Part shown: piece after piece, positions 16,909 to 42,468 of the stretch
How the letters are laid out: the number at the start of each line of letters is the position of its first letter
How positions within the stretch are numbered: the stretch's first letter is position 1
Made by a program: the position numbers and the translations under genes
The notes under the pieces: generated by a model
Database searches by the model: none
Seen by the model: only the letters and a program-made list of their open reading frames with translations
What the model was told of the DNA's origin: nothing
Source: Candidatus Latescibacterota bacterium
GTDB lineage: Bacteria; Latescibacterota; UBA2968; UBA8231
Assembly (NCBI GenBank): GCA_965219385.1
Contig: CBDCNM010000002.1
Coordinates: 1,730,936 to 1,794,935, forward strand
Direction: 5' to 3'
DNA length: 64,000 nt

Positions 16909-17865
16909 ATGAGACAGATCGTGCGACAACTGGACATCCTGCGGACGCTGCAGGCGCGGCGCTACGGGATGAGTGCACGCGAACTGGCGGACGAGTACAA
17001 CGTAGATAGGCGCACCATACAGCGCGATCTGGGAGACCTGCGCGAGGCCGGATTTATACTGGACGAAAAACGGCGCGCCGATCAGCGCATCTACTACCAA
17101 CTACAAAAGGACACCAGGCTGCCGCTGAACTTCCCGATCATGGAGGTCGCGGCGATGATCTTTGCTGAGCGGGCCGGCATGGAACTGGTGGGGACCCCGT
17201 TCGGTGAGCACCTGCGGTCGGCGGTCCGCCGGCTGACCCAGGCCATGCTCCCGAAGATGCGGCAATTCCTGGAGCGCGCCGCGGAGGCCTACGTGCCGCT
17301 GGCGCGCGGGCACAAGCCGTACGAGGACGCCCGCGAGGTGCTCGAAAACCTGCACGAGGCCATGCTGGAGCGCCGCGTGTGCCGGGTGAGCTACCGCACG
17401 CCAGCGGCGGAGAGCGCCCGGCAGTACGAAATCGAACCGCTACGCCTCCTGCCGCACCGGGGTGGTCTGTACGTGATCTCGCGGATGCCCTACTACGACC
17501 AGTTGATCACGCAGGCGGTGGAACGCTTCGAGGCGGTGGAGGTGACGGAGGAGCGGTTCGAGCCGCCGGACCACCTGTCCATCGAGGAGCGGGTGAGCAA
17601 TGCCTTCGGGGTCTCGTCCGAGGAGCCCATGGACGTGGTGGTTCGGTTCGCCAAGGAGCAGGCGCCCTATATCCGCGAGCGGATCTGGCATCCCAGCCAG
17701 GAGCTGGAAGAGCTGCGGCTTCGAGCCGGCGGATTCTACGAGATCAGAAGCTGGGTGTTGAGCTTCGGAGCCGCGGCTGAAGTGCTGGAGCCGGAGGAAC
17801 TGCGGGAGGCGGTGCGGGAGGAGATGCGGGCGGCGCTGGGGCTGGATGACGAGAGTGCGACGTGA
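16909..17865 (+). CDS. WYL-domain transcriptional regulator (wHTH-WYL-WCX; PafBC/DriD/BrxR-like)
   Basis: HTH SARELADEYNVDRRTIQRDLGDL; WYL region VSYRT...IEPLRL...LYV; WCX motif IRERIWHPSQE...SWVLSFGAAAEVLEPEELR. Confidence 0.93.
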   Translation: MRQIVRQLDILRTLQARRYGMSARELADEYNVDRRTIQRDLGDLREAGFILDEKRRADQRIYYQLQKDTRLPLNFPIMEVAAMIFAERAGMELVGTPFGEHLRSAVRRLTQAMLPKMRQFLERAAEAYVPLARGHKPYEDAREVLENLHEAMLERRVCRVSYRTPAAESARQYEIEPLRLLPHRGGLYVISRMPYYDQLITQAVERFEAVEVTEERFEPPDHLSIEERVSNAFGVSSEEPMDVVVRFAKEQAPYIRERIWHPSQELEELRLRAGGFYEIRSWVLSFGAAAEVLEPEELREAVREEMRAALGLDDESAT

Positions 17866-17889
17866 TCTGTCGCCGGACTTCGATATATC
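17857..17889 (+). promoter_or_regulatory. WYL-box motif copy 1 (overlaps WYL stop codon)
   Basis: GCGAC-gtgatct-GTCGC, 10 bp, TATATC. Confidence 0.65.
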
Positions 17890-18009
17890 CGCAGAGGAAG
17901 GAGCAGCGACGGGGCTTGAACGGGCGCAGTCTTCGAAAGCCGACTGCTCTAAGCTGCCCAAACCATTAAGATACACAAATCAAAGGGGCTGACTGTATGA
18001 ACCAAATGA

Positions 18010-18216
18010 ATGCCAAGAAGATCTACACTTAACCGAAACAGCTTCCTGACTAGCTATGGCACTGAGTATATGGGCGGCAGAGGTACATATAGACTCATTG
18101 GTGAAACTTGGCGGTGGCTTCACGACGAACTAGGCTTACCCGATGAGGCGAGGAAAGTCGCAGAAGCGTATGTCAAACCTGACGGCAGGTATGCCTACGA
18201 GGAGGCCGAGGCATGA
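18010..18216 (+). CDS. Small hypothetical protein or remnant
   Basis: 68 aa ORF downstream of motif copy 1; no recognisable motif. Confidence 0.35.
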   Translation: MPRRSTLNRNSFLTSYGTEYMGGRGTYRLIGETWRWLHDELGLPDEARKVAEAYVKPDGRYAYEEAEA

Positions 18217-18276
18217 TATTCTATATTCGTAGAGCACAAGGAGGAAAAATGAATCTCACGCAGAAGAGGGATCATC

Positions 18277-18435
18277 GTGCAACACGTCTTTTTTAGACCT
18301 TGGGTCGGTGACAATTTTTCAGAAGGTGGCTTGTGGTCGAAGAAAATACTCGCCTATGGCGTGAGGCACCCATCTGCTGGCTTTAGTGGCTGGAGCTGGC
18401 ATCCGTTTGTCACACGTGCGATTGAATTAGCCTAG
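18277..18435 (+). pseudogene. Internally deleted remnant of a conserved protein (possibly UDG-like fold)
   Basis: GTG start after GAGGG; VFFRPWVGDNF...KKIL joined directly to a C-terminal-like VRHPSAGFSGWSW segment; only 52 codons. Confidence 0.4.
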
Positions 18436-18544
18436 CTGGTTGGGCAGCCTTCCAACGCTATAGCCTCGACGAACACGCCATCATCTTTCTTGAACGGAGG
18501 CTTTGTATATTGAAATATCGTAATCAATCTATATCTTATATGGT

Positions 18545-18826: not shown

Positions 18827-18827
18827 A

Positions 18828-19088: not shown

Positions 19089-19188
19089 GCGAAAGTCGCT
19101 ACGCCACGGCAACCGCTGACCACCGCAAGGAGCATAGATTCCTTGCCTCAACTCACGACAAACTCTCCGGTCCCATCGACATCTGCTG

Positions 19189-19404
19189 CTTCCTGAAGGC
19201 GTGTGCGAAGCGGCCTCATGCGCCAACCATTCCCGGCAGATTCTCCTGGACCATCCAGCGACTATTGCAAGGCCCCCTTCTCGGTCCGGTAGCATCGAGC
19301 TTCCGGTAGCCCTTGGTCGCAAGCGCGGTCAGCCGGGCGACCTTGGCGGAATTGATCCCCTCGTAAAAAAATTTCTGCCTGCGACGCGATCTGTCGCACC
19401 TCCT
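19189..19404. repeat. 216-bp direct repeat copy A, ending in WYL-box copy 2
   Basis: Near-identical to 24838-25053 (CTTCCTGAAGGCGTGTGCG...GCGACGCGATCTGTCGCACCTCCT). Confidence 0.95.
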
Positions 19405-19413
19405 AGGTAAGTT
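19381..19413 (+). promoter_or_regulatory. WYL-box motif copy 2
   Basis: tGCGAC-gcgatct-GTCGCa; TAAGTT begins 10 bp after GTCGC. Confidence 0.75.
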
Positions 19414-19519
19414 CCTTTTACCACAACCAGAAGGCGGAGGGATTTCTCCGCGACCTCTGCGGTGGCCGCTCTTGTGAATGTAAGCATGCGCACGCGGAGC
19501 GTGTTGTCTTTCTCAAGCA

Positions 19520-19744: not shown

Positions 19745-19754
19745 AAAGGAACCT

Positions 19755-21019
19755 ATGATCGCAACTATTGATACTCAGCACCCAGAGCGCACGCCGCCAC
19801 AGGCCATCGAGATAGAACAGGCAGTATTGGGGGCGATGATGCTTGAGCAGTGCGCCATCGGCCACGCCATCGAAATCCTCGACCCAAGCTGCTTTTACAA
19901 TACTTCGCATAGCCGGATCTTCGAGGTCATGCTCAGCCTCTACGAACGCGGCGTGGCCGTCGATCAGTTCACCTTAGCCGAAGAGCTCAAGCGCCGCAAC
20001 CAACTCGATGAGGTCGGCGGAGCCGTCTATCTAGCCAAGCTAGCCGCCCAGGTCACCACCGCTGCCAACATCGACGTCCACGCTCGGATCGTCCTGGAAA
20101 AGGCACTCAGCCGCCGGCTCATCGAGACCGCCAGCGACATCATTGAGCAAGCCTACAAAGGCAGCGAGGACATGCTGGAGCTAATCGACAACGCTGAGCA
20201 GCGTCTTTTTACCATTAGCGAAAACTGGATCGAAGGCGATATTGAGCCATTAGAGGAGCTCATGTACGACGCGCTCGAACAGAGTAAGCGTGTCCACATC
20301 TCTGGGATAGAGACCGGGTTTGTCGATCTCGACGCGTTGACCTCCGGCCTTCAAAAGGGCGATCTGATCGTGCTGGCAGCGTGCCCAAGCGTAGGCAAGA
20401 CGGCACTGGCGCTGACCTTGGCGCGCAACGCGGCGGTGGAGGCCGGGATCGGGGTGGTGATCTTCAGCCTGGAAACGTCCAGGATGGAGCTGGCCCGGCG
20501 CCTGATCAGCGCCGAGACCCGGGTCGATCTGCACAAGCTGCGCACCGGCCGGCTCCGCGACGACGACTGGATGCGCCTGACGCGCAAGGCCGGCCGCCTG
20601 GCCCAGGCGCCGATCTACATTCTTTACAACTGATGAGCGGACAGGTGGGGACCCCCAGCCGCGAGCAGGAAATCGCGCCCATCTCGCGCGACCTGAAGGC
20701 CCTGGCCCAGGATCTGGACGTGCCGGTGCTGGTGCTGTCGCAGCTGTCGCGCGCGGTGGAAAGCCGACCGGACCGGCGGCCTCAGTTGTCGGACCTGCAG
20801 GAGTCGGGGATCGAGCAAGCTGCCGACGTAGTGATGTTCGTTTACCGACCCGATATGTACGGCCTCAAGGCCCCCGACGGCGGCAGCCTCGAGGGCATCG
20901 CCGAGATCATCATCGCCAAGCAGCGCAACGGCCCCACAGGCTCGGTCCACCTGATGTGGAACGCCGAGAGCGCGACCTACGAGCCGCTTGTGCCTAGAAG
21001 TGGTTTCATAACCGTCTAA
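19755..21019 (+). pseudogene. dnaB: Replicative DNA helicase DnaB paralog, frameshifted by an internal deletion and 3'-disrupted by an IS end
   Basis: PPQAIEIEQAVLG, LAACPSVGKT and FSLE; at ~20620 the DDTPG...VVDY segment present in the 40972 copy is missing and the frame shifts to LQLMSG...LSQLSR...KQRNGPTG. Confidence 0.9.
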
Positions 21020-21430: not shown

Positions 21431-21634
21431 GGCACCAGAAGAGGAGTTTTAGCTTGGTCGGCACCGTGGGAGGAGTGTGTCACTTTATCCAACGAGCCGT
21501 TTACGCACATCCCCAAGGAACCCAACCACCCTTCTTGACGTCCACTTGAGATAAGAGGGTTAGAGCCGGCAGCGCTGCGGGCGGAATGCCCTTTTGACGT
21601 GTCATGGATAGCGCCGTAATGAAGGAGGGCTCCA

Positions 21635-23399: not shown

Positions 23400-23933
23400 A
23401 TGAGAACCTTAACGCCCGAGGAAAAGAAGTTCCTGGTAGATTACTGCATGGAACGCAAGGAGAATACCTGGCTCGCACTGGCAATTGGTCAGATACAACC
23501 GGAGCTACGAAAGGCAATTGTGTCCCCATTTCTGAAGGAACTCGATGAGAGTATCAGAGAAAAACTTGAAGAGTGCCATCACTGCCAATGGGAAACAAAA
23601 ATCCCGGAAACGAATCTGGAAGGGAACTCGATCCCGATCTATATTATGACGGTTCGAGGGATCGAAATGCAGCTCCGTGTATGGGGAGGGGGATACTTGT
23701 TGGTAGGACCACCAAAGGAGCTTGACCTCGGACGGGATGAGATCGTAGCAGGTTTGAACGTCAAGCTACTCAGCAATAATAAGGCGTGGTGGTTCAATGC
23801 GGAAAGGCACATCAAGAGCTTTGAAGACCTGAGCACACTTAGCGACGACGAGGTCAGGCGCGAAAAGATCGAGTACTTCACACACATTTTCGTGTGCCTT
23901 GCGAAGAACATTTCGAAGGCACTGGAGGCATGA
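23400..23933 (+). CDS. Hypothetical protein, paralog B, coupled to the downstream nuclease
   Basis: AAGGAG RBS; MRTLTPEEKKFLVDYC...TWLALAIGQ; ATGA overlap with the next gene. Confidence 0.75.
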   Translation: MRTLTPEEKKFLVDYCMERKENTWLALAIGQIQPELRKAIVSPFLKELDESIREKLEECHHCQWETKIPETNLEGNSIPIYIMTVRGIEMQLRVWGGGYLLVGPPKELDLGRDEIVAGLNVKLLSNNKAWWFNAERHIKSFEDLSTLSDDEVRREKIEYFTHIFVCLAKNISKALEA

Positions 23934-24688
23934 AGATGGTCACCCATACGAATCTCAAGCAAGAGACTCCGCGGTTCTTCGAGGGCGCCAGGCAAGGCCT
24001 TCAGGTTCTGAGGCCAGTCATAGCTGAACTTGACCGCCACCTGGCTCGCCGGTTCAGCACCTTCAAGTACATCCATCTAGATGAAAACCGTATGTCCGAT
24101 GTGCTGGCTGACCTGCTTCGCCCCGACTCCGAGCATGGGCAGGGCGACCTGTTCCTGGCCGCTTTCGTGAATCACTTGCGGAAGGACGAAGCAACGAAGT
24201 CAGGGATGAAGAAGCGGATTCTGCGGGATGGTTCCACCTGGTCGCACGTGCGGGTCTACCGGGAAGCGCTGACAACCCACATCGACGCCTGGAACAGGAG
24301 AATCGATATCGAGATCAGCATGACGGTCGACCGGAAACGGGTTGGAATTGCGATTGAAAACAAGCCGAGTGCGGAGGATCAACCGGCGCAGTTGGACCAC
24401 TACGCCGAACACCTGGATAGTAAATACAAGGGACGATACCTGCTGTTATATCTGACCCCCGACGGAAAGCCGCCAGAGCCTAAGAGCCTTACACAAGAGC
24501 GACAAACCGAACTGGGTGATCACTTCGCCTGCGTGAGCCTGGTGAAATGGGCACAGGGGTGGCTGCAGGAGGCCGAGAATCAAGTGAGCGCCAGCTACGT
24601 GCAGCGGTTCGTTGCCGACTTCAGGCAAGTCCTTCTCCAGAGGTACGCGGATTCCGAGACGGAACCATACTTGTCCATACTCGCGTAG
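23930..24688 (+). CDS. PD-(D/E)XK nuclease family protein (PDDEXK_4-like)
   Basis: ENRMSDVLADLLRP..EHGQG, RRIDIEI, IAIENK, DQPAQLDHY, LLYLTPDG. Confidence 0.85.
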   Translation: MKMVTHTNLKQETPRFFEGARQGLQVLRPVIAELDRHLARRFSTFKYIHLDENRMSDVLADLLRPDSEHGQGDLFLAAFVNHLRKDEATKSGMKKRILRDGSTWSHVRVYREALTTHIDAWNRRIDIEISMTVDRKRVGIAIENKPSAEDQPAQLDHYAEHLDSKYKGRYLLLYLTPDGKPPEPKSLTQERQTELGDHFACVSLVKWAQGWLQEAENQVSASYVQRFVADFRQVLLQRYADSETEPYLSILA

Positions 24689-24694
24689 CTAGCC

Positions 24695-24726
24695 GCGACA
24701 TGATCTGTCGCACCCCCGGGTAGGTT
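24695..24726 (+). promoter_or_regulatory. WYL-box motif copy 3
   Basis: GCGAC-atgatct-GTCGC, 9 bp, TAGGTT. Confidence 0.7.
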
Positions 24727-24837: not shown

Positions 24838-25053
24838 CTTCCTGAAGGCGTGTGCGAAGCGGCCTCATGTGTCAACCATTCCCGGCAGATTCTCCTGGAC
24901 CATCCAGCGACTATTGCAAGGCCCCCTTCTCGGTCCGGTAGCATCGAGCTTCCGGTAGCCCTTGGTCGCAAGCGCGGTCAGCCGGGCGACCTTGGCGGAA
25001 TTGATCCCCTCGTAAAAAAATTTCTGCCTGCGACGCGATCTGTCGCACCTCCT
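24838..25053. repeat. 216-bp direct repeat copy B, ending in WYL-box copy 4
   Basis: Near-identical to 19189-19404. Confidence 0.95.
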
Positions 25054-25062
25054 GGATAAGTT
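25030..25062 (+). promoter_or_regulatory. WYL-box motif copy 4
   Basis: tGCGAC-gcgatct-GTCGCa; TAAGTT 10 bp after GTCGC; GAGGTG RBS and ATG at 25095. Confidence 0.78.
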
Positions 25063-26476: not shown

Positions 26477-26522
26477 TAAGTACCGGGTCATATAGTGTGC
26501 AGCATCATTCGAGGAGGAAGCC

Positions 26523-31312: not shown

Positions 31313-31345
31313 CGGACATGATTTGTCGCACTCCTGGGGTAGGTT
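31313..31345 (+). promoter_or_regulatory. WYL-box motif copy 5 (variant left arm)
   Basis: CGGAC-atgattt-GTCGC, 10 bp, TAGGTT; then AAGGAGG RBS and ATG. Confidence 0.68.
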
Positions 31346-32318: not shown

Positions 32319-34907
32319 ATGCCACGGCAAGATAAGAAGACAAAAAGAGACATCGAGAGCTACGCGCACGCGGACAAGGAGCGCGTCAACAACCCGCCGG
32401 TCGGCCTGGTCACGCCGGAGACGGATGAGGACAGCGGCAAGAAGACCTACGCCTATGACCCTCATCTCGACCCGCAACTGCAATGGGCCGGCAAGGCGGA
32501 GCACACCTCGTTCGAGGTGCCGACCGTCTCGCTCCACGTCCACGAGCGCATTGACCCGCGCACCGTCATCGAGGCGGTGCGGAAGCGCAATGGCTCCGCC
32601 CAGCAGTTGTCCATGTTCGAGACGCTGGGGGAGAATCCACCCATCCGCCAAGCCATCGAGTTCTACAAGCATCGACACAACTGGACCAACCGCCTGATCG
32701 CCGGCGACAGCCTGCTGATCATGAACAGCTTGGTCGAGAAGGAGGGTCTCGGTGGGCAGGTGCAGATGGTCTACATCGACCCGCCCTACGGCATCCGCTA
32801 CGGCTCCAACTTCCAGCCCTTTGTCGACAAGCGAGAGGTGACCGACGGCAAGGACGAGGACCTGACCCAGGAGCCCGAGATGATCCGCGCCTTCCGGGAT
32901 ACCTGGGAGCTCGGCATCCACTCCTATCTCGCCTATTTGCGGGACCGCCTGCTACTCGCCCGTGAGCTGCTGCACGAGAGCGGAAGCTGTTTCGTGCAGA
33001 TCGGCGATGAGAACGTCCACCGCGCCGGCATGGTCATGGACGAGATCTTCGGCGCGGAGAATCGATTGGCGACCATTTCTTACGCGACGACCGGCGCGAG
33101 TTCTACAACGACCTTGCCGGAGGTGTCGGACTACTTGCTTTGGTACGCCAAAGACAAGGCGCGGGCGAAATACCGGCAGTTGTACGAACCACTCACGCGG
33201 GCCGAGGTCATCGAATCCTTCAGTTGGCACGTCATGGTCGAACTGCCGGATGGGCAATGCCGCAAGCCTACGCCGGAAGAGTGCTTTGACCCTGATGAAC
33301 ATCTGCCGGAAGGCGCGCGTATCTACCGACGCATGCCTCTTGATTCCCAGGGTGTCTCTACGACCGGTCGTTCCGAACCCTATGAATGGAAGGGGCGGGT
33401 CTACCGGTGCGGCAGTGATCGGCACTGGGCGATTTCAAATGAAGGGTTGGACAGGCTCGCAGAACTGGGCCGACTGGAGGCATTAGAGGGACAATCATCG
33501 CTGATGTGGAAGCGATATGAAGACGAAGTTCCCGGCCGCCGCATCAACAACATCTGGGCCGCGCCGATGTCGCCCACCGACAAACGCTACGTAGTCCAGA
33601 CCGCCAGCAAAGCGATCCAACGCTGCATATTGATGACCACCGATCCGGGCGATCTGGTATTCGATCCCACCTGCGGCAGCGGCACCACCGCCCACGTGGC
33701 CGAGCAATGGGGTCGCCGCTGGATCACCTGCGACACCTCGCGGGTGGCGGTCGCCATTGCCCGCCAGCGGCTGATGACCGCGAACTTCGACTACTACGAG
33801 CTGGCCCATCCCGACGAAGGCGTCGGCGCCGGTTTCCGCTACCGCAGCGTCGCCACCGTATCGGCGAGAACCCTGGGCTATGACGAGCCGCCCAACGAGA
33901 CCATGCTCTACGACCAGCCGGAACTCGACCGCCGGAAAGCGCGTGTAACCGGACCGTTTACCGTCGAAGCGGTCCCCGCGCCGGCGGTGAAACCCCTCGA
34001 CGAAATCGAAGATGCCGGAACGCAACCTGCCGACATATCCGTGGCGCGTACGGGGCCGACCTTGCGGCAAGCCGATTGGCGCGACGAACTGTTCAAAACA
34101 GGCATACGCGGCAAGGCGGGCCAGCGCATCTCCTTCGCCCGGTTGGAGCCACAGCCAGGCACGAGGTGGCTCCACGCGCTGGGGGAGACCCGCCCGGACG
34201 CTTCCGGTGCGGACAGAGTCCGGGATAGCGCCACGGCTTGGACTCCCGAGCAGATCGCCGTCTCCTTCGGGCCGGATCACGCGCCGATGGAGCAGCGGCA
34301 GGTGGCCCTCGCCATCGAAGAGGCGCAAACCCTCGTCCCCAAACCGAAGATCATCCTCTTCGCGGCTTTCCAGTTCGACCCCGAGGCGTCGAAGGACATC
34401 GACGAGACCAACTGGCCCGGCGTCACGCTGCTCAAAGCGCAGATGAACGCCGACTTGCTGACCGACGATCTCAAGAAGGAGCGCGCAAGCAACGAGAGCT
34501 TCTGGCTGATAGGACAGCCCGACGTAGAGCTTGAACCGGTCTTGGACGGCGACGATGAAGGCAAATTTCGTGTCACGGTCCGGGGATTCGACTACTACAA
34601 CACCAAGACCGGCAACGTGGAATCGGGCGGTGCCGACAGGATCGCCCTGTGGATGCTGGACCCCGACTATGACGGGCGCAGCCTGTTTCCCCGGCAGGTG
34701 TTCTTCCCGATGGCAGGGTCAAACGGCGGCTGGGCCAAGCTCGCCCGCAACCTCAGGGCCGAGATCGACGAAAGCCGGATCGAAGCCTATCGCGGCACCG
34801 TCTCCCTGCCGTTCGAGGCGGGAGAGCACCAGCGCATCGCCGTCAAGATCGTCGACGATCGCGGCATCGAGAGCCTGAAGATTGTGGAAATCTCTGCATT
34901 TACCTGA
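32319..34907 (+). CDS. Adenine-specific DNA methyltransferase, type III-like R-M Mod subunit
   Basis: VYIDPPYG (motif IV) precedes VFDPTCGSGTT (motif I), the beta-class order; C-terminal IAVKIVDDRGIE. Confidence 0.93.
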   Translation: MPRQDKKTKRDIESYAHADKERVNNPPVGLVTPETDEDSGKKTYAYDPHLDPQLQWAGKAEHTSFEVPTVSLHVHERIDPRTVIEAVRKRNGSAQQLSMFETLGENPPIRQAIEFYKHRHNWTNRLIAGDSLLIMNSLVEKEGLGGQVQMVYIDPPYGIRYGSNFQPFVDKREVTDGKDEDLTQEPEMIRAFRDTWELGIHSYLAYLRDRLLLARELLHESGSCFVQIGDENVHRAGMVMDEIFGAENRLATISYATTGASSTTTLPEVSDYLLWYAKDKARAKYRQLYEPLTRAEVIESFSWHVMVELPDGQCRKPTPEECFDPDEHLPEGARIYRRMPLDSQGVSTTGRSEPYEWKGRVYRCGSDRHWAISNEGLDRLAELGRLEALEGQSSLMWKRYEDEVPGRRINNIWAAPMSPTDKRYVVQTASKAIQRCILMTTDPGDLVFDPTCGSGTTAHVAEQWGRRWITCDTSRVAVAIARQRLMTANFDYYELAHPDEGVGAGFRYRSVATVSARTLGYDEPPNETMLYDQPELDRRKARVTGPFTVEAVPAPAVKPLDEIEDAGTQPADISVARTGPTLRQADWRDELFKTGIRGKAGQRISFARLEPQPGTRWLHALGETRPDASGADRVRDSATAWTPEQIAVSFGPDHAPMEQRQVALAIEEAQTLVPKPKIILFAAFQFDPEASKDIDETNWPGVTLLKAQMNADLLTDDLKKERASNESFWLIGQPDVELEPVLDGDDEGKFRVTVRGFDYYNTKTGNVESGGADRIALWMLDPDYDGRSLFPRQVFFPMAGSNGGWAKLARNLRAEIDESRIEAYRGTVSLPFEAGEHQRIAVKIVDDRGIESLKIVEISAFT

Positions 34908-34946
34908 AAGTCCTACCTAAAAGTCCATAACACGAGGACAGCCGAC

Positions 34947-36377
34947 ATGGAAGATACCGAAAGCCGGAAACCGCCTGTAACTTATCGATTCAAAAACATT
35001 GGACCCGTTAAGGATGCAGAGCTGGAATTGGGGGACCTCACGGTAATTGCTGGCCGCAACAACACCGGCAAGACGTACATCGCTTACACACTTTACGGCT
35101 TCCTGAAAACGTGGAAGGCTTGGCCTTATGCTAATGATTTTCTGATGGCCCAGTTTCAGGCTCAATTTCCAGACATACGTGGCGTTATCAAAAAAGTGAT
35201 CCGAGAAGGTCAAGCCGCGCTCCCCTTAGATCGGAACACGCTCGACCAGCAGCGAAAAATATTGATTGAAGAAGTGGCCAGTGCTTTCTCTCGACAAGCT
35301 CTGCCCGAAGTATTTAGCTCACAACACGACGATTTCGAAGAATCTTTCGTTTTGGTCGAATTCAACGCAGGTATCCGTATCGATACTCGCTCCATTAGAG
35401 AAGATTTCCCCGAAGGAGGCTCTCTTTCAATCGAATATGATGGAAACAATGTCTTCATAGCCATTAACAACGTTAAAAGCCAAGGTCGCATTCCCGATCT
35501 GGAATCCTATATCTCGTATCACTATTTTCTTTTTTTGCTGAGGGATTACTTTCCCGAACCGTTCATTCTGTCTGCCGAGCGCTTTGGTATTTCTCTCTTC
35601 TACAGGGAGCTCGATTTTACCAAAAACCAGTTGGTTGATTTGTTACAGAAGTTGGGCGACGACAAGAGTCGAGAGAGACTTTCTCCCTTTTTCCTCATAG
35701 ACAGGGCCACGAGCCGCTACGCTCTTCCTATAAAGGATAATATCGACTACACTAGGAGCATTCCGGATCTGCGGGGGGGAAAAAGCGAAATCTATAATGA
35801 CAAGCTGTTCGATAATATCAAGGACATGATGAGCGGTTACTACGGAAATTCTGGCGACGACATTCGATTCATATCGAAGGCGCGTGGAAAGGAACGCAGC
35901 TTCAACATACCATTGCACCTCGCTTCCTCTTCTGTTCGCGGCTTGTCTGACTTCTACTTCTTCCTGCGGCACGTTGCCAAGGACAATCACTTGCTTATCA
36001 TCGACGAGCCGGAGAGCCATCTCGACACTGCTAATCAGATCCAATTGGCACGCCTGTTGGCTCGATGCGTACGCGCCGGACTAAAGGTCCTCATCACGAC
36101 CCACAGCGACTACCTCATCAAAGAGATCAACAACCTCGTCATGCTGAGCAGACCATTCGCGGATAAGGACGCGGTTATCAAGAAGCTCAAGTATGGAGCG
36201 GACGATGCTCTGGAGCCGGAGTCGATTCGTGCGTACGTGGCAGAGAAAAACGGACTGACAAGGTGCGCCGTTGACCAGTTCGGCATTGATATGCCGGTGT
36301 TCGACAAGACTATCGACGAGATCAACATGGTGGCAAACGAGCTTTCATCGCGATTGTCCGAAGATTCGGAGGCATGA
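34947..36377 (+). CDS. ABC-type ATPase (AAA_15/AAA_21, AbiEii/RloA-like)
   Basis: FKNIGPV, AGRNNTGKT, LIIDEPESHL, ITTHSDY. Confidence 0.88.
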   Translation: MEDTESRKPPVTYRFKNIGPVKDAELELGDLTVIAGRNNTGKTYIAYTLYGFLKTWKAWPYANDFLMAQFQAQFPDIRGVIKKVIREGQAALPLDRNTLDQQRKILIEEVASAFSRQALPEVFSSQHDDFEESFVLVEFNAGIRIDTRSIREDFPEGGSLSIEYDGNNVFIAINNVKSQGRIPDLESYISYHYFLFLLRDYFPEPFILSAERFGISLFYRELDFTKNQLVDLLQKLGDDKSRERLSPFFLIDRATSRYALPIKDNIDYTRSIPDLRGGKSEIYNDKLFDNIKDMMSGYYGNSGDDIRFISKARGKERSFNIPLHLASSSVRGLSDFYFFLRHVAKDNHLLIIDEPESHLDTANQIQLARLLARCVRAGLKVLITTHSDYLIKEINNLVMLSRPFADKDAVIKKLKYGADDALEPESIRAYVAEKNGLTRCAVDQFGIDMPVFDKTIDEINMVANELSSRLSEDSEA

Positions 36378-36381
36378 AGTA

Positions 36382-36930
36382 GTGCTGTCTACACAACTCA
36401 AGGCAATTCTTACAGATAAAGCTCTGGTTTCACCCAAATCCGGTAGCAACATGATCCTAGGAGAGAAAAATGTGATGAAAGTCGAAGTCACCCAGATGCC
36501 CTCGGACGTTATCGCGGTAAACATGCGTATGGTAGGCCATTTACCAGGCGTAAAAGATGGCGAATTGAAGCAGATCTGTGACTATCTACTGGTTAGCAAA
36601 TTCGAAGGCATGGATCATGCCATATTTATTGAATTGAAAAAGACTTTGAGAGAAGACAAGAAGGGTATGAAGCAGCTACGGAGGTCGCTGCCGCTCCTGG
36701 AGTGCCTGCGCTCCGTCTGCCATATCCACTATGATGTGAAAACAAACAGACTAGCGCTGGCGGTACGGTACTTTCTTGTTGGAACGAAGAACCATGCGAG
36801 GATCGATAAACAGCGTGTGAAACCACAACTGGGCGTCGAAAAGGAGAATTACAAGGATATAGAGGTACACACGTATCTGGGAGAAAGAATTCGATTTGGT
36901 CTGTTGCTCAACGAGGAGATGGGCAAATGA
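36382..36930 (+). CDS. Hypothetical partner of the ABC ATPase, possible PD-(D/E)XK-like fold
   Basis: GTG at 36382; CDYLL...FIELKK...QL pattern; overlaps the next gene (ATGA). Confidence 0.6.
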   Translation: MLSTQLKAILTDKALVSPKSGSNMILGEKNVMKVEVTQMPSDVIAVNMRMVGHLPGVKDGELKQICDYLLVSKFEGMDHAIFIELKKTLREDKKGMKQLRRSLPLLECLRSVCHIHYDVKTNRLALAVRYFLVGTKNHARIDKQRVKPQLGVEKENYKDIEVHTYLGERIRFGLLLNEEMGK

Positions 36931-37739
36931 CTCGACCGCCTAAGTCCAAGGCAATAGAGCGTCTACGGAAAGTGCTCGATGCGATACCTGAATTGAAGCA
37001 AATGTGTCGAAACTCACCGGAGTTTAAGAGGTGGCAAAGGGACACGCGGGTAGCCATCACCAACACCTTCGGGAACGAATCACAGCATATTACAGATTTC
37101 GACAAGATCCATTTTTCTTTGACAGTAATTTCCAACCTAACGAATGATTCAAATTTCCAAGCAGCCTATGTGAACGGCTTGGAATCAGCGGCGTCAGTAC
37201 TCGAATCCATGATTGAGGAGATCAACGAGTATTGGGAAGATCAAAATCAGACGCCAATACCTTCTGGAGTCCACGAGAACGAACAGATAACTACCAATGA
37301 AATCTTTATCGTTCATGGCAGGGATGAAGAGGCCAAGCACATGGTGGTGAGATTCCTCGAAAGACTGGATCTGGAACCAGTAATTTTAGCTGAAAAGCCG
37401 GGAAAAGGTCGTACGATTATCGAGAAATTTGAGCAGCACGCCCAAGTCGGTTACGCGATTGTTTTGCTTACACCGGACGATGCCGGTTCGCTTCAGGGCG
37501 ATGAAAACGCCCCCAAGCCGCGAGCGAGGCAGAACGTGATTTTCGAGTTGGGGTTTTTCATCGGGCGCCTTGGCCGAGAGCGCGTCTGCGCCTTGACCAG
37601 GGGAGACGTGGAGATTCCATCGGACTACGCAGGGATTGAATACATTCCGTTTAACTCTAACGATTGGAAGTTGAGACTTATTCGGGAGTTAAAGAGCGGC
37701 GGCTTCGAGGTCGACGCGAACCGGGCATTTCGGACATGA
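36927..37739 (+). CDS. TIR-domain (CAP12/Pycsar-effector-like) nucleotide-binding protein
   Basis: IFIVHGRD, GRTIIEKFE, AIVLLTPDD, RARQNVIFELGFFIG, EIPSDYAGI. Confidence 0.9.
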   Translation: MTRPPKSKAIERLRKVLDAIPELKQMCRNSPEFKRWQRDTRVAITNTFGNESQHITDFDKIHFSLTVISNLTNDSNFQAAYVNGLESAASVLESMIEEINEYWEDQNQTPIPSGVHENEQITTNEIFIVHGRDEEAKHMVVRFLERLDLEPVILAEKPGKGRTIIEKFEQHAQVGYAIVLLTPDDAGSLQGDENAPKPRARQNVIFELGFFIGRLGRERVCALTRGDVEIPSDYAGIEYIPFNSNDWKLRLIRELKSGGFEVDANRAFRT

Positions 37740-37888
37740 ATGCACATATCGAGACTCCGCGAGACGGAATCGTCCTCGTGCATGCCTACTTCGAATTGAA
37801 CCTGGAACGCGAGTGGGAGGTGGTGCAACGAGACATACCCCGTCTCATCACCCTCATCGAGCCGCTGGTGCCGCCGGAGGCAGGGTAA
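37736..37888 (+). pseudogene. HepT/DUF86 HEPN toxin C-terminal remnant
   Basis: CGGAATCGTcCTCGTGCATGCCTAC reads RNRLVHAY (RxxxxH) if one base is removed, followed by WEVVQRDIPRL. Confidence 0.65.
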
Positions 37889-40686
37889 TGGCGCAGACGA
37901 CCATTGACCGCCTCATCGTCAACTCTCCCTACGAGGAGCCGGCGAAACATTGGCGCTACGACCGGCAGACGAGACTGTTCGATCTGGCGGATGGACGCCG
38001 GCCGGCCGGTTACGTCGTCGCGTCGGGCGACTCCAAGGCATTCGACGACCCCGGCATCTTTGTAGAAATCCCGCTGGTCAACCAAATCCGTCCGCGAGTC
38101 GAGGCGTGGCGCAAAACCGGATATCCGGGTGTAACCAGCATCACCAAGCGGCTGCTCGAGCACTGGACCGACCCGGAAGAATTCGGGACCCGGCGCTTTT
38201 TCTTCTGCCAACTGGAGGCGGTCGAAACCCTGATCTGGCTTACGGAAGCGCCCGCCTCCGATAAGGTCGGCGTGGAGCTTCCGTCCGATGGAGGCACGTT
38301 CGAGCGGTTGTGCGCGAAGATGGCGACCGGCTCCGGCAAGACCGTCGTCATGGCGATGGTTATCGCCTGGCATATCCTGAACAAAGTCACCTATCCCCAG
38401 GACACCCGGTTCGCCAGGCACGTTCTGGTCATCGCTCCAGGTCTCACCGTACGCAGCCGTCTGGCCGTGCTGGAGCCGTCCCATGCGGAGAGTTACTACG
38501 ACGAATTCCGCATCGTGCCGTCGTCCCTGCTCGACAAGCTGCGCCAGGGCAGGGTAGTGATCCGCAACTGGCACGCACTCAATTGGGAGGCCGAGGAGAA
38601 AATCGCCGGGAAACGCGGCGTCGACAAACGCGGAGCCAAAAGCGATGAAGCCTACGTCCGAGAGGTTCTGGGCGATTTGGCGAGCGCCCGCAACGTCTTG
38701 GTCATCAACGACGAGGCGCATCACGCTTGGCGGATTCCCGCCGAATCCAAGGTCAAGGGTGTGAGCAAAGATCAGATCGAGGAAGCGACCAAATGGGTGG
38801 GCGGTCTCGATCGGATCGACAAGGCGCGCGGCATTCTCACCTGCTACGACTTCTCGGCCACGCCCTTCGCGCCTTCGGGCAAACGGAGTTCCGAGGAGGC
38901 GCTGTTCGGCTGGATCGTGAGCGATTTCGGCCTGAACGACGCCATCGAGTCCGGGTTGGTCAAAACCCCGCGCGTCGTGGTCCGCGACGACGCGGTGCCC
39001 GACGCCAAGACCTACAAATCGCGCCTCTATCACATCTACGACGATTCCGAGGTTAAAGACGACTTGAACCGGCGAGCCAAGCCCGAGGAGCCGCTGCCGG
39101 ACTTGGTTACGAACGGCTACTACCTGCTTGGCTACGATTGGCGCGAAACCGCCAGGGAGTGGGCGGCGCGACCGGACCGGCCGGACAAGGCCCCGCCGGT
39201 AATGATCACCGTCGCCAACCGCACCGAGACGGCGGCTCGGGTCAAGCATGCGTTCGACCACAAGAGGGTCCGCATCAACGAGCTGTGCGACCCTGAGCGA
39301 ACGCTGCACATCGACTCCAAAGTGCTCGCCGCCGCCGAGGCCGCCGAGGAACCGATCGCGGAGATTGACGGCGGCGAGAGCGGGGAAGACGCGGACAACG
39401 GCCACCCGCGGAAGCTGACCAGGAAACAGCAAGCCGAGTTGCTGCGCCTGCGAGTGGATACCGTGGGACAGCCCGGAAAGGAAGGTGAGCAGGTACAGAA
39501 CGTGATCTCCGTCGGAATGCTTTCGGAAGGCTGGGACGCCAAGACCGTCACTCACATCATGGGCCTGCGTGCGTTCACTAGCCAACTCCTCTGTGAACAG
39601 GTCGTCGGACGCGGCCTGCGCCGCACTTCTTACGATGTAAACCCGGACACCGGTTTGTTCGAGCCGGAGTACGTCAACATTTTCGGCGTGCCTTTCACAT
39701 TCCTGCCCCACGAGGGCGGAGAAGACGGTCCACCGCCGCCGCCCAAGCCGAAGACCGCCGTCGAGCCAGTAGCGGACAAGGCGGAATTCGAGATTTCGTG
39801 GCCGAACGTTATCCGCATAGACCACAACTACCGCCCGCGCCTGTCCCTGGAATGGCAAAAGCTGAAGCCCCTGGAGCTTGACGCTGGGCAGACGGCCCGG
39901 ATCGCGGAGCTTGCCCCGATCGTCGAGGGCAAGCCGGACGCGACGCAGATCGAGGCCATAAACCTAGACAAGCTGGCGCGGGAGTTCCGCACCCAGCGAA
40001 TCATCTTCGAGACCGCGCGGGACGTCTACGACCAGATGCAGGAGAACTGGCGGGGCGGCAAGGCGTTCCTGCTGGCCCAACTGGTGTGGTTGATCGAACA
40101 ATTCATCCGTTCGGACAGAATCAGCATCGCACCTACGTTATTTCTCCACGACGACCTCAAGCGACGCCTCATCATCACGCTCAACATGACCAAGGTGGTC
40201 CAGCATATCTGGGAGGCGATCCGCTTTGAGAACACCGAGAGTCTGGATCCGGTGTTCGACCAGGACCAACCCATCCGTTCAACCGGCGACATGCGCACCT
40301 GGTACACCGGCAAGCCCTGCGAGCGCACCGCGCACAGCCACATCAATTTCTGTGTCTATGATAGCACCTGGGAAGCGTCGGAAGCCTTTGCCCTTGACCA
40401 CGCCTCCGAGGTGGCAGCCTGGGTGAAAAACGATCACTTGGGCTTCGAAGTGTTCTACGTCCATCTCGGCGTGGTGCGGAAGTACCGTCCCGATTTTATC
40501 ATCCGGCTCAGGTCGGGTGACATGTTGGTATTGGAAACCAAGGGCCAGGACAGCGAACAAGACCGAACCAAACGCCAATTCCTCGACGAATGGATCAATG
40601 CTATCAACGCGCATGGCGGCTTCGGTCGCTGGTCCTGGGACGTGTCGAAGGCTCCTGGAGACATCCGGGACATCCTCGCGCAATAG
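37888..40686 (+). CDS. Type III-like restriction endonuclease/helicase (Res subunit)
   Basis: KMATGSGKT, INDEAHH, DFSATP, MLSEGWD, EQVVGRGLRR and C-terminal YRPDF...LETKG nuclease motif. Confidence 0.92.
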   Translation: MAQTTIDRLIVNSPYEEPAKHWRYDRQTRLFDLADGRRPAGYVVASGDSKAFDDPGIFVEIPLVNQIRPRVEAWRKTGYPGVTSITKRLLEHWTDPEEFGTRRFFFCQLEAVETLIWLTEAPASDKVGVELPSDGGTFERLCAKMATGSGKTVVMAMVIAWHILNKVTYPQDTRFARHVLVIAPGLTVRSRLAVLEPSHAESYYDEFRIVPSSLLDKLRQGRVVIRNWHALNWEAEEKIAGKRGVDKRGAKSDEAYVREVLGDLASARNVLVINDEAHHAWRIPAESKVKGVSKDQIEEATKWVGGLDRIDKARGILTCYDFSATPFAPSGKRSSEEALFGWIVSDFGLNDAIESGLVKTPRVVVRDDAVPDAKTYKSRLYHIYDDSEVKDDLNRRAKPEEPLPDLVTNGYYLLGYDWRETAREWAARPDRPDKAPPVMITVANRTETAARVKHAFDHKRVRINELCDPERTLHIDSKVLAAAEAAEEPIAEIDGGESGEDADNGHPRKLTRKQQAELLRLRVDTVGQPGKEGEQVQNVISVGMLSEGWDAKTVTHIMGLRAFTSQLLCEQVVGRGLRRTSYDVNPDTGLFEPEYVNIFGVPFTFLPHEGGEDGPPPPPKPKTAVEPVADKAEFEISWPNVIRIDHNYRPRLSLEWQKLKPLELDAGQTARIAELAPIVEGKPDATQIEAINLDKLAREFRTQRIIFETARDVYDQMQENWRGGKAFLLAQLVWLIEQFIRSDRISIAPTLFLHDDLKRRLIITLNMTKVVQHIWEAIRFENTESLDPVFDQDQPIRSTGDMRTWYTGKPCERTAHSHINFCVYDSTWEASEAFALDHASEVAAWVKNDHLGFEVFYVHLGVVRKYRPDFIIRLRSGDMLVLETKGQDSEQDRTKRQFLDEWINAINAHGGFGRWSWDVSKAPGDIRDILAQ

Positions 40687-40711
40687 GGCATTGTCGCGAT
40701 CCGCGCCCATG

Positions 40712-40820
40712 GGGATGTCGACCTGGCGGTTTTAGTGTCGCAGTAGGCGTTCCCGGCAGATTCGCCTGGACCATCCGACCCCCGTAAAAAATTTCCGCCT
40801 GCGACGCGATCTGTCGCACC
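40712..40820 (+). repeat. Mosaic of the collagen-gene 3' end and a shortened 216-bp repeat
   Basis: GGATGTCGACCTGGCGGTTTTAGTGTCGCAGTAG matches 25538-25571; TCCCGGCAGATTC.CCTGGACCATCC and CGTAAAAAATTTC.GCCTGCGACGCGATCTGTCGCACC match the repeat. Confidence 0.85.
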
Positions 40821-40833
40821 CGTGGGCGAAGTT
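40801..40833 (+). promoter_or_regulatory. WYL-box motif copy 6 (degenerate -10)
   Basis: tGCGAC-gcgatct-GTCGCa; GAAGTT 10 bp after GTCGC. Confidence 0.68.
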
Positions 40834-40971
40834 TGAGGAGAAGTCACCGACCTGACCCAACCTCAACCCACGGGAGGACACCGTGATCCAGACCATCTCC
40901 GCCTGCTGCCTGGCCCTGGCCTTGGGGGTATACTGTCGGCAGGGTGGGGGGGGCGCTCTAAAAAAGAACCT

Positions 40972-42444
40972 ATGATCGCAACTGTTGATACTCAGCACCT
41001 AGAGCGCACGCCGCCGCAGGCCATCGAGATAGAGCAGGCCGTGTTGGGGGCGATGATGCTCGAGCAGCGAGCCATTGACTGCGCCAGCGAAATCCTCGAC
41101 CCAAGCTGCTTTTACAATGCCCCGCACAGCCGGATCTTCGAGGCCATGATCGACCTCTACGAGCGCGGCGTGGCCGCTGATCAGTTCACCTTGGGCGAGG
41201 AACTCAAACGCCGCGACCAGCTCGATGAGGTCGGCGGAGTCGTCTATCTGGCCAAGCTGGCCGCCAAGGTCGCCACTGCCGCCAATATCGACTTCCACGC
41301 GCGGATCGTCCTGGAGAAGGCGCTAAGCCGCTGGCTGATCGAGACCGCCAGCGAGATCATCGAGCAGGCCTACAAAGGCAGCGAGGACGTACTGGAGCTG
41401 ATCGACAGCGCCGAGCAACGGCTTTTCAGTATCAGCGAAAACCAGATCGGCGAGGGGCCTGAGCCGCTGGCGGAGGTAATGGACAATGCGCTCAATCAGA
41501 TTGGGCGTGCTCACGACAGGATCAGCACAATCTCCGGGGTTGAGACGGGGTTTGTCGAGCTCGACGCGTTGACCTCCGGCTTTCAGAAGGGCGAGTTGAT
41601 CGTGCTGGCGGCGGTGCCGGGCGTCGGCAAGACGGCCCTGGCGCTTGACCTGGCGCGCAACGCGACGGTGGAGGCCGGGATCGGGGTGGCGATCTTCAGC
41701 CTGGAAACGTCCAGGATACAGCTAGCCAAGCGCCTGCTCAGCGCCGAGACCCGGGTCAATCTGTACAAGCTGTGCACCGGCCGGCTCCGCGACGACGACT
41801 GGATGCACCTGAGGCGCAAGGCCGGCCGCCTGGCCCAAGCGCCGATCTACATAGACGACACCCCCGGCATCTCGGTGCTCGAAGCCCGGGCCAAGGCCCG
41901 CCGGCTGCACCGCGATGCCGGGATCGGCCTGATCGTGGTGGACTATTTACAATTGATGAGCGGACGGGTCAGGGGCCCGAGCCGCGAGCAGGAAATCTCG
42001 CACATCTCGAGCGGGCTGAAGGCCCTGGCCAAGGAGCTGGACATGCCGGTCCTGGCGCTGTCGCAGCTGTCGCGCGCGGTGGAAAACCGCACGGACCGGC
42101 GGCCGCAGTTGTCGGACTTGCGGGAGTCGGGGAGCATCGAGCAGGATGCCGACATGGTGATGTTCGTTTACCGCCCCGAGATGTACGGCCTCAAGGGGCC
42201 CGACGGCGCCAGCCTCGAAGGCATCGCCGAGATCATCATCGACAAGCAGCGCAACGGTCCGTGCGGCTCGGTCATCTTGAAGTGGAACGCCGAGAGCGCG
42301 ACCTACGAGCCGATGGCCCCCGAGTGGCGGATGGAAGGAACCGGAAGAGGAGCTTTAGCCTGGCGGCCTCGGCGTCGCAGGCGTCGCCCACAGGCCGTCC
42401 GACGCGCGTCCCAGGATCCGAAAAAGTTTGACCCCGCGACATGA
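40972..42444 (+). CDS. dnaB: Replicative DNA helicase DnaB paralog (intact reading frame)
   Basis: PPQAIEIEQAVLG, LAAVPGVGKT, FSLE, IVVDYLQL, LSQLSR, SDLRESGSIEQDAD, KQRNGP. Confidence 0.93.
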   Translation: MIATVDTQHLERTPPQAIEIEQAVLGAMMLEQRAIDCASEILDPSCFYNAPHSRIFEAMIDLYERGVAADQFTLGEELKRRDQLDEVGGVVYLAKLAAKVATAANIDFHARIVLEKALSRWLIETASEIIEQAYKGSEDVLELIDSAEQRLFSISENQIGEGPEPLAEVMDNALNQIGRAHDRISTISGVETGFVELDALTSGFQKGELIVLAAVPGVGKTALALDLARNATVEAGIGVAIFSLETSRIQLAKRLLSAETRVNLYKLCTGRLRDDDWMHLRRKAGRLAQAPIYIDDTPGISVLEARAKARRLHRDAGIGLIVVDYLQLMSGRVRGPSREQEISHISSGLKALAKELDMPVLALSQLSRAVENRTDRRPQLSDLRESGSIEQDADMVMFVYRPEMYGLKGPDGASLEGIAEIIIDKQRNGPCGSVILKWNAESATYEPMAPEWRMEGTGRGALAWRPRRRRRRPQAVRRASQDPKKFDPAT

Positions 42445-42468
42445 TCCGTCGCACCCCCGGAGTAGGTT
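42436..42468 (+). promoter_or_regulatory. WYL-box motif copy 7 (overlaps dnaB stop, precedes clpP)
   Basis: GCGAC-atgatcc-GTCGC, 10 bp, TAGGTT; GGAGG RBS and ATG at 42511. Confidence 0.78.

What the first reader, a model, noticed from the sequence alone, without database searches (positions are those of the whole stretch)
16909..42468. Seven copies of a palindrome plus -10 motif define a candidate WYL-activated regulon across the island
Seen: GCGAC-N7-GTCGC, with a conserved spacer (A/G)(T/C)GAT(C/T)(T/C), occurs at 17857, 19381, 24695, 25030, 31313 (left arm CGGAC), 40801 and 42436, all in the + orientation. I did not notice it outside the island. Ten bp after GTCGC (9 bp in one copy) lies TAAGTT or TAGGTT in five copies, TATATC in one and GAAGTT in one. 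In several copies an RBS and start codon follow (25095, 31371, 40883, 42511). Copy 1 overlaps the stop codon of the WYL gene. Established knowledge: Caulobacter DriD binds CGAC-N7-GTCG-type palindromes, and mycobacterial PafBC activates promoters of the form TGTCGG-N10-TAnnnT; both are WYL proteins switched on by single-stranded nucleic acid. Inference: this motif combines both features and lets the local WYL protein activate many separate modules (lipoprotein, dnaB, clpP-AAA, others) on DNA damage or phage infection. That would be an activator-type regulon in a defence island, unlike the BrxR/CapW repressors.
Basis: partly seen in the sequence, partly recalled or inferred. Interest (0 to 1): 0.9.

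Follow-up and report, generated by a model that had tools for sequence, protein, structure and literature searches.

The report
Damage-sensor promoters heading shuffled defence genes
A short DNA signal repeated seven times in this gene island is most likely the docking site that lets a neighbouring stress-sensing regulator switch on several interchangeable gene blocks together, a kind of switch already known from other bacteria and here found in a little-studied lineage.

Summary
The repeat is real: 6 perfect GCGAC-N7-GTCGC copies (0.21 expected) plus one imperfect, all co-oriented. GCGAC..GAT..GTCGC occurs only in this island genome-wide; an eighth related copy follows a broken second WYL gene. 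The element matches the published DriD promoter design: a CGAC-N7-GTCG box replacing the -35, then 10 bp, then an xAxxxT -10. Around 79 WYL homologues the arms and 10-bp spacing persist while spacers differ between clades. Close orthologues have 62 boxes downstream against 1 upstream. Best reading: an island-local regulon of a DriD-type activator, whose promoters head modules (tandem AAA ATPase, dnaB, clpP-AAA, lipoprotein) that are reshuffled between relatives. Corrections: the motif is not a new DriD/PafBC hybrid, and activator control of defence genes is published (DdaA). Only three of seven boxes head intact genes, and none sits directly before the restriction or TIR genes. This WYL copy has a private 7-residue WCX deletion, and its clade lacks several DriD ssDNA-binding residues, so the trigger is uncertain. 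No binding or expression data. The scan has noted similar regulons on other DNA. Verdict: new member of a known kind.

The parts
16909..17865 (+). wHTH-WYL-WCX regulator (318 aa), candidate activator; 7-residue in-frame deletion in WCX after residue 267
   Evidence: Pfam HTH_11, WYL, WCX; best PDB sequence and fold matches are DriD; deletion
17857..17889 (+). Box 1 (17857-17873, overlapping the WYL stop) and weak hexamer TATATC (17884-17889); followed only by short remnant ORFs
   Evidence: box at the WYL end in 15 of 23 close and 21 of 24 mid-range orthologue loci
19365..19413 (+). Box 2 (19381-19397) with A-tract 19365-19371 and TAAGTT 19408-19413; no intact gene directly behind, frameshifted dnaB copy from 19755
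19163..19432 (+). Duplicated block (94% to 24815-25083): decayed module-head sequence plus box 2
19755..20986 (+). Broken dnaB-like copy (85-87% to the copy at 40972), split over two frames
23930..24688 (+). PD-(D/E)XK_4 nuclease gene ending 6 bp before box 3
   Evidence: Pfam PDDEXK_4, PADLOC PDC-S26
24695..24726 (+). Box 3 (24695-24711) with TAGGTT at 9 bp (24721-24726); heads a decayed clpP 5' end
25014..25062 (+). Box 4 (25030-25046) with A-tract 25014-25020 and TAAGTT 25057-25062
25095..25571 (+). 158-aa protein with lipobox-like N-terminus (read by eye) and short collagen-like repeat; first gene after box 4
   Evidence: homologue downstream of WYL in 11 of 21 close loci
25569..26480 (.). 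912-bp insertion sequence between the lipoprotein and the AAA gene
   Evidence: 23 near-identical copies elsewhere in G000
26523..28601 (+). Tandem AAA ATPase (SpoVK/Ycf46/Vps4-like), the most constant partner of this WYL family
   Evidence: within 10 kb downstream of WYL in 13 of 21 close and 17 of 23 mid-range loci
30102..31304 (+). PD-(D/E)XK_4 nuclease gene ending 8 bp before box 5
31313..31345 (+). Box 5 (imperfect left arm, 31313-31329) with TAGGTT 31340-31345
31377..31784 (+). 135-aa ORF after box 5, no family match; apparently truncated (residues 1-83 match a relative; relatives' ORFs about 230 aa)
32319..40686 (+). Type III RM Mod and Res genes enclosing a PD-T4-4/PDC-M47-like ATPase pair and a TIR gene; no box of its own
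40786..40833 (+). Box 6 (40801-40817) with A-tract 40786-40791 and GAAGTT 40828-40833
40972..42444 (+). Accessory DnaB-like helicase (490 aa; about 70% to the core dnaB), preceded by a 30-codon remnant ORF at 40883; stop codon lies inside box 7
42421..42468 (+). Box 7 (42436-42452) with A-tract 42421-42425 and TAGGTT 42463-42468
42511..45233 (+). ClpP-like protease (42511-43101) and winged-helix/AAA ATPase (43098-45233); last module of the island

Best explanation
Each copy is a DriD-type activator-dependent promoter. A dimer of the island's wHTH-WYL-WCX protein binds the two GAC/GTC half-sites, which sit where a -35 element would be (about -39 to -23), and recruits housekeeping RNA polymerase to an xAxxxT -10 ten bases downstream; many copies add an A-tract about 9-15 bp upstream. 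A stress ligand bound by the WYL domain (probably a single-stranded nucleic acid, possibly not the same as DriD's) would switch on all modules at once. The regulon is accessory and separate from the LexA SOS system. The roughly 55-bp promoter unit is the constant part of a hypervariable array behind the WYL gene: modules are duplicated, deleted and re-joined around it. In this genome the array is partly decayed. Shown: sequence, spacing, linkage, conserved reading residues, module reshuffling. Inferred: binding, activation, start sites, ligand, recombination mechanism.
For: (1) Protein: best PDB hits are DriD by sequence (E 9e-11) and by fold (E 2e-14, ranked above PafBC, CapW and BrxR; low TM-score 0.25). 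DriD's base-reading Arg37 and Arg41 (PMC10853764) align to R35 and R39; R39 is kept in 77 of 77 aligned proteins and R35 in 71 of 77. (2) Site: DriD consensus ATACGAC-N7-GTCGTAT; the promoter probe printed in PMC13004042 reads GTCGC, 10 bases, CAATCT (my count); PafBC consensus tGTCgg-N10-tAnnnT (PMC8635444). (3) Linkage: in 23 loci with 72-88% WYL homologues, 62 boxes in 203.6 kb downstream against 1 in 198 kb upstream; in 24 loci at 43-55%, 30 against 6. (4) Spacing: TAnnnT at offset exactly 10 in 39 of 57 and 23 of 28 distinct flanks, against 0 of 59 and 0 of 29 in the reverse direction. In the distant clade (30-42%) 13 of 32 loci have a box with TAnnnT at 10 upstream of the WYL gene, with 11 different spacers. 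(5) Among 62 family genomes, 19 of 20 with a close WYL orthologue carry the exact 17-mer against 3 of 42 without (kin and physical linkage make this non-independent). (6) In 19 of 21 mid-range loci a terminator-like hairpin begins 0-3 nt after the hexamer; a transcript starting about 7 nt downstream would lose most of it (-11.5 to -19.1 falling to 0 to -7.6 kcal/mol), which fits a start site there. (7) lexA and five of seven recA copies examined have a TTGAC -35; none of the seven recA upstream regions has this box. (8) Between unrelated modules, identity is confined to A-tract, palindrome, ACC and hexamer.
Against: No binding, expression or start-site data were obtained. This WYL copy alone lacks 7 WCX residues that 73 of 73 evaluable homologues have (76 aligned, 3 unreadable through frameshifts); WCX is DriD's main dimer domain. 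ssDNA pocket: DriD Y168, R176, Y192 and R288 are kept, but R178, R204, W206, R207 and Y240 align to Y, I, Q, A and S; R207A and Y240A impair DriD. DriD's Ala20, needed small for polymerase contact, aligns to Arg18. Three of seven boxes head debris; copy 1 lacks the -7 T, copy 3 has 9-bp spacing, copy 6 starts with G. G017, G062 and G072 carry boxes with no close WYL match. Four stand-alone boxes in relatives precede only 16-66-codon ORFs. My relaxed arm pattern was set after seeing the first loci, and genome-wide it gives no excess over a reversed control (12 against 40).
Confidence: 0.75

Rival explanations
1. The copies are passengers: module heads multiplied by duplication in an unstable array, with no present regulatory role at least in this genome.
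For: Copies lie in larger duplicated blocks; three head debris; this WYL has a private deletion and the second copy at C1 is broken; boxes persist in three genomes without a close WYL match.
Against: Arms are 95-100% identical between unrelated modules while flanks fall to about 25-30%; the 10-bp spacing holds across clades with different spacers.
Confidence: 0.09
2. The WYL protein binds the box as a repressor (BrxR/CapW-like), blocking polymerase until a ligand releases it.
For: The box covers the -35 position; the island holds defence genes; spacer positions RYGATC give a 3 of 6 match to TTGACA at 16-bp spacing (my reading).
Against: No good -35; geometry identical to DriD activation promoters; helical linker and best fold match are DriD/PafBC, not BrxR/CapW.
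Confidence: 0.06
3. The palindrome is the core of a site-specific recombination site (inverted arms around a 7-bp asymmetric overlap) that shuffles cassettes, as in integrons or shufflons.
For: Co-oriented copies; spacer 82% identical even between unrelated modules; 77 sites fall into 26 upstream and 31 downstream classes in 51 combinations; alignment ends fall in 38 of 40 box windows against 78 of 115 other gene junctions and 35 of 118 in-gene windows.
Against: None of 10 tyrosine-recombinase matches in G000 is near the island (nearest about 270 kb) and none is among 108 array-flank proteins scanned. The 8 bp left of the box track upstream and downstream class equally (0.71 each), so there is no sharp crossover in the spacer. 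The one-sided -10 spacing is unexplained, and distant clades have single boxes with free spacers.
Confidence: 0.05
4. The promoters are real but are read by another regulator, such as the 29% WYL paralogue at G000 C1:318804 or a core factor.
For: G000 has two further WYL-domain matches; the C1:318804 gene has its own GAC-N7-GTC palindrome upstream; boxes occur in G017, where no WYL domain was found.
Against: That paralogue carries an internal stop; boxes cluster behind this WYL clade only; the LexA box is a different sequence.
Confidence: 0.05

Closest known systems
DriD regulon of Caulobacter crescentus (PMC10853764, PMC13004042; passages read)
   Same: wHTH-helical linker-WYL-WCX architecture; CGAC-N7-GTCG box; two reading arginines; box over the -35 position at a fixed distance from the -10 (10 bp in the printed probes by my count); no consensus -35.
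   Different: About 23% identity. Boxes lie downstream of the regulator, head modules in one variable array and do not mark recA. Five ssDNA-pocket residues and the Ala20 contact are replaced. The spacer is conserved within the clade and an A-tract lies upstream.
DdaA of Moraxellaceae (PMC12392091, passages and two sections; PMC13010146, passages)
   Same: WYL activator with a DriD-like palindrome; controls defence genes; alanine in place of the first ssDNA arginine.
   Different: DdaA is a core, genome-wide regulator replacing SOS (recA, ssb, uvrA, RM, CRISPR), with its motif about 50 bp upstream of the start site. Here LexA is present and the boxes are confined to accessory arrays.
PafBC of mycobacteria (PMC8635444, PMC6789036; passages)
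   Same: GTC half-site followed by N10 and TAnnnT; two arginines read the GTC triplet.
   Different: Heterodimer reading a non-palindromic site; here one gene and a full palindrome.
SiwR of Mycobacterium smegmatis (PMC10693628; passages)
   Same: Homodimeric WYL activator of neighbouring genes through a palindrome upstream of the -10.
   Different: One promoter and two DinB-like genes, not a multi-promoter array.
BrxR and CapW (listing only, and passages in the DriD papers)
   Same: WYL regulators placed at the head of defence islands.
   Different: Repressors with a different linker and dimer mode; weaker fold match.

Membership tests
DriD-type homodimeric WYL activators | wHTH, three-helix linker, WYL and WCX domains in one chain | tested here: met
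   Pfam; helices 77-89, 97-112, 115-127 in the model; DriD best hit
DriD-type homodimeric WYL activators | Two base-reading arginines in the recognition helix | tested here: met
   R35 and R39 align to Arg37 and Arg41; R39 in 77 of 77, R35 in 71 of 77
DriD-type homodimeric WYL activators | CGAC-N7-GTCG box at a fixed distance from a -10, no consensus -35 | tested here: met
DriD-type homodimeric WYL activators | Conserved ssDNA-binding pocket | tested here: inconclusive
   4 of 9 listed DriD residues that I aligned are kept, 5 replaced; DdaA also lacks the first arginine yet responds to damage
DriD-type homodimeric WYL activators | Intact WCX dimer domain | tested here: inconclusive
   7-residue deletion in this copy only; model confidence under 50 at 253-265
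DriD-type homodimeric WYL activators | Binds the box and activates transcription on ligand binding | not testable with these tools
   needs EMSA and reporters
DriD orthologues proper | Box in own upstream promoter and at core damage genes | tested here: not met
   Box lies after the WYL stop in the close clades; none at 7 recA upstream regions or among top genome-wide matrix hits outside the island
DriD orthologues proper | Falls in the DriD or DdaA clade of a WYL tree | not tested
   no tree with reference proteins was built
DdaA | Genome-wide damage regulon with motif about 50 bp upstream of the start | tested here: not met
   LexA present in 5 of 5 genomes
PafBC | Heterodimer with non-palindromic -26 element | tested here: not met
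   single gene, full palindrome
BrxR/CapW repressors | Operator over a strong promoter upstream of the regulator; helix-hairpin linker | tested here: not met
Integron or shufflon cassette array | Linked tyrosine recombinase | tested here: not met
Integron or shufflon cassette array | Crossover confined to the overlap region | tested here: inconclusive
   flank tracking shows no sharp point

The most novel reading that the evidence does not exclude
The repeated promoter is also the pivot of a recombinase-free plug-in array. The shared 35-55 bp unit gives enough homology for modules to be exchanged, duplicated or deleted, so any incoming gene lands under the WYL switch. The clade's altered pocket may sense a ligand other than DriD's ssDNA, and its constant output, the tandem AAA ATPase with accessory DnaB and ClpP, may be an undescribed stress or anti-phage pathway.
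Probability: 0.25. Interest if true: 0.7.

Novelty: new member of a known kind. Interest (0 to 1): 0.45.

Why it matters
It extends the DriD promoter rule (palindrome, 10 bp, -10), which its authors predicted to be general for homodimeric WYL activators, to Latescibacterota-like, Acidobacteriota, Myxococcota and other lineages, with dozens of natural promoter variants. It gives a testable list of genes co-induced by an accessory sensor beside LexA, and points at an uncharacterised tandem AAA ATPase as the conserved output. If the promoter also drives module shuffling, it would explain how defence arrays stay both variable and co-regulated.

Tried and rejected
No RNA holder listed for 16800-25560, so no expression test. 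Contigs of four unclassified runs were laid at 85% likeness: one 1408-bp contig with no differences covers box 1; joins such as 25068 to 26523 (4 of 4 runs), 17882 to 22635 and 22470 to 17811 (1 run each) resemble module junctions seen in relatives but may come from other strains or species; the WCX deletion was not among the 12 of 86 indel rows shown, so it is neither confirmed nor excluded. Rfam: 0 matches in 16000-46000. Viral contigs: no relative of the WYL alignment. A loose pattern without the -10 hit 34 of 41 genomes and was uninformative. A matrix trained on 20 sites from other genomes ranked five island copies first, but counts above scores 14 and 16 equalled the reversed control. LexA-box hypothesis rejected: lexA promoters carry a GAAC-N4-GTGC/GTTC-type box (label recalled). 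The conserved 190-bp stretch before boxes 2 and 4 shows no clear coding or family match and looks like decayed module heads. Literature searches with no paper on this family or lineage: WYL + Latescibacterota (1 irrelevant hit); WYL/AAA ATPase/defense island/regulon/DnaB (0 hits); some searches returned only the known regulators. Earlier-finding look-ups by sequence and place returned nothing. Rows dropped: 6 of 77 relaxed-pattern sites judged spurious; one search left out 9 listed sites and all WYL-end sites, keeping 47. No complex prediction and no phylogenetic tree were run.
Full report
Observation. The palindrome GCGAC-N7-GTCGC occurs 6 times in the window against 0.21 expected, at the stated places, and a seventh copy with left arm CGGAC lies at 31313. 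In the 5.8-Mb genome, the pattern with the GAT spacer core has 6 of 6 sites in this island. One further related copy, at C1:125453, follows the 3' remnant of a disrupted paralogue of the same WYL gene and precedes an ORF resembling the island's PD-(D/E)XK nuclease genes (resemblance by eye). The copies are not independent events: 19163-19432 repeats at 24815-25083, 24693-24832 repeats at 42434-42588, and dnaB is duplicated.

Anatomy. The island runs from the WYL gene (16909) to about 45233 and is mostly lower in GC than its flanks. It holds a RelE/HTH pair, two PD-(D/E)XK_4 nucleases, a tandem AAA ATPase, a type III RM system enclosing a PD-T4-4-like ATPase pair and a TIR gene, dnaB, a ClpP-like protease and a winged-helix AAA ATPase. 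Boxes 4, 6 and 7 head intact genes (lipoprotein-like gene then, past an insertion sequence, the AAA ATPase; dnaB behind a 30-codon remnant; clpP-AAA). Box 5 heads an apparently truncated ORF. Boxes 1, 2 and 3 head debris. No box stands directly in front of the RM, ATPase or TIR genes, so their control by this regulon could only be by read-through.

The regulator. The 318-aa protein has HTH_11, WYL and WCX domains. Its best solved relatives by sequence and by fold are DriD, then PafBC, with CapW and BrxR lower (model pLDDT 73; TM-scores are low because domain arrangement differs). DriD's base-reading Arg37 and Arg41 (PMC10853764, passages) align to R35 and R39, kept in 71 and 77 of 77 aligned proteins. 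Against a simple transfer of function: of nine DriD ssDNA-related residues that I could align, Y168, R176, Y192 and R288 are kept while R178, R204, W206, R207 and Y240 are replaced. The alanine at the R207 position is clade-wide (74 of 77), and a first-arginine-to-alanine change is reported for DdaA (PMC12392091, section read). DriD's Ala20 aligns to an arginine. This copy alone lacks seven WCX residues present in 73 of 73 readable homologues.

Comparative test of the site. One search returned 79 loci (best 80 of 244 confirmed stretches); the closest come from records titled Candidatus Latescibacterota, so the host is probably of that group. With a relaxed arm pattern chosen after seeing the first loci, the 23 close loci (72-88%) have 62 boxes downstream and 1 upstream of the WYL gene over about 200 kb each; the 24 mid-range loci (43-55%) have 30 and 6. 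A box sits at the WYL end in 15 of 23 and 21 of 24; 16 of 23 close loci have two or more. TAnnnT lies exactly 10 bp after the box in 39 of 57 and 23 of 28 distinct flanks and in none read in the other direction. In the 32 distant loci (Acidobacteriota, Myxococcota, Deltaproteobacteria and others) 13 have a box with TAnnnT at 10 bp upstream of the WYL gene, with 11 different spacers. The spacer is clade-specific (RYGATCY, ATACCCT, free), so arms and spacing, not the spacer, are the deep invariant. Among 62 family genomes, 19 of 20 with a close WYL orthologue have the exact 17-mer against 3 of 42 without; these genomes overlap the loci above, are kin, and the boxes are physically linked to the gene, so this is supporting, not independent, evidence. 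Some genomes carry boxes on satellite modules far from the WYL gene, which implies action in trans; four stand-alone boxes precede only very short ORFs.

Promoter reading. [quoted passage not shown] PafBC's consensus is tGTCgg-N10-tAnnnT (PMC8635444, passages). The element here is therefore the standard DriD design, not a new hybrid. Two further features fit a promoter. An A4 tract lies 6-20 bp upstream in 15 of 22 distinct non-WYL upstream classes against 4.5% background, an UP-element-like position (inference). In 19 of 21 mid-range loci a terminator-like hairpin starts right after the hexamer, and a transcript from about +7 would lose most of its stem: the WYL mRNA would stop there while the activated transcript runs on into the AAA ATPase gene (inference). 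lexA is present in 5 of 5 genomes checked with a different box, and none of seven recA upstream regions has this box, so the regulon is accessory to SOS.

Shuffling. Seventy-seven sites in 23 arrays fall into 26 upstream and 31 downstream sequence classes in 51 combinations. Alignment ends fall in 38 of 40 box windows, 78 of 115 other gene junctions and 35 of 118 in-gene windows; part of this excess is trivial because the box itself is shared. Between unrelated modules identity is confined to the A-tract, palindrome, ACC and hexamer. The bases just left of the box follow upstream and downstream class equally, and no tyrosine recombinase is linked (the 108 proteins scanned were 57 of 79 close-clade and 51 of 86 mid-range representatives). 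Selection to keep whole promoters, plus homologous or microhomology exchange between them, explains this better than site-specific recombination; the mechanism is not shown. The most constant target is the tandem AAA ATPase (13 of 21 close, 17 of 23 mid-range loci), then lipoprotein, PD-(D/E)XK_4 and dnaB.

What is known. An activator-type WYL regulon that includes RM and CRISPR-Cas is published for DdaA (PMC12392091, passages and two sections; PMC13010146, passages), and SiwR activates neighbouring genes through a palindrome before the -10 (PMC10693628, passages). PMC6789036 was read in passages; PMC9186387, PMC9122601 and PMC11662680 were seen only in search listings. Six searches found no paper on this WYL clade or on multi-promoter WYL arrays; the library lacks most subscription journals, and I did not open the supplements of the DriD and DdaA papers, whose homologue tables could list this clade. 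The scan's own notes hold eight similar island regulons on other DNA; I did not test them and they are not counted as support.

Verdict. What is distinctive is the array of promoter-led modules reshuffled between relatives, the altered ligand pocket and the promoter-terminator overlap in the sister clade. Whether the regulon still works in this genome is open. Interest 0.45.

Noticed in passing
L092-L125 (mid-range WYL loci), just after the WYL stop: In 19 of 21 loci a terminator-like hairpin with a T-run begins 0-3 nt after the -10 hexamer, so it would stop the WYL mRNA but not a transcript started at about +7.
   Followed up: partly
G000 C1:123941-126900 (L018): Second, broken copy of the WYL gene interrupted by AT-rich ORFs with TPR-like sequence (read by eye), followed by a box and a nuclease-like ORF.
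   Followed up: partly
window 25569-26480: 912-bp insertion sequence with 23 near-identical copies elsewhere in the genome, suggesting recent activity; family not tested.
   Followed up: no
window 16647-16780: Inverted-repeat element between the TonB-receptor gene and the WYL gene with seven weak matches elsewhere in the genome; REP-like by recall.
   Followed up: no
G000 C1:714657, C1:716993, C2:3262889: A different GCGAC-N7-GTCGC palindrome inside a repeated stretch of about 200 bp; two copies are inverted 2.3 kb apart.
   Followed up: no
window 42511-45233: ClpP-like protease with Ser, His and Asp at the expected motifs (by eye) overlapping a winged-helix/AAA ATPase gene: an ATPase-plus-peptidase pair reminiscent of IetAS (weak IetA matches).
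   Followed up: no
window 32319-40686: A PD-T4-4/PDC-M47-like ATPase pair and a TIR gene (PDC-S35) are nested between the Mod and Res genes of a type III RM system; L070 has an AbiJ-domain gene in the same position.
   Followed up: no
L069 18804-19781 and L165: One relative carries a tandem duplication of the whole WYL-headed array with a second full WYL gene.
   Followed up: partly
G000 C2:1271121 and C2:1234856: Two recA genes in 4 of 5 genomes checked; one of each pair examined has a TTGAC -35 with LexA-type boxes.
   Followed up: no
upstream flanks of close WYL loci (L069-L091): ClpP homologues lie within 10 kb upstream of the WYL gene in 12 of 21 loci, a different neighbourhood from this window's TonB receptor.
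   Followed up: no
G000 C1:318804: A 29% WYL paralogue with an internal stop has its own GAC-N7-GTC palindrome and TATCTT upstream.
   Followed up: partly
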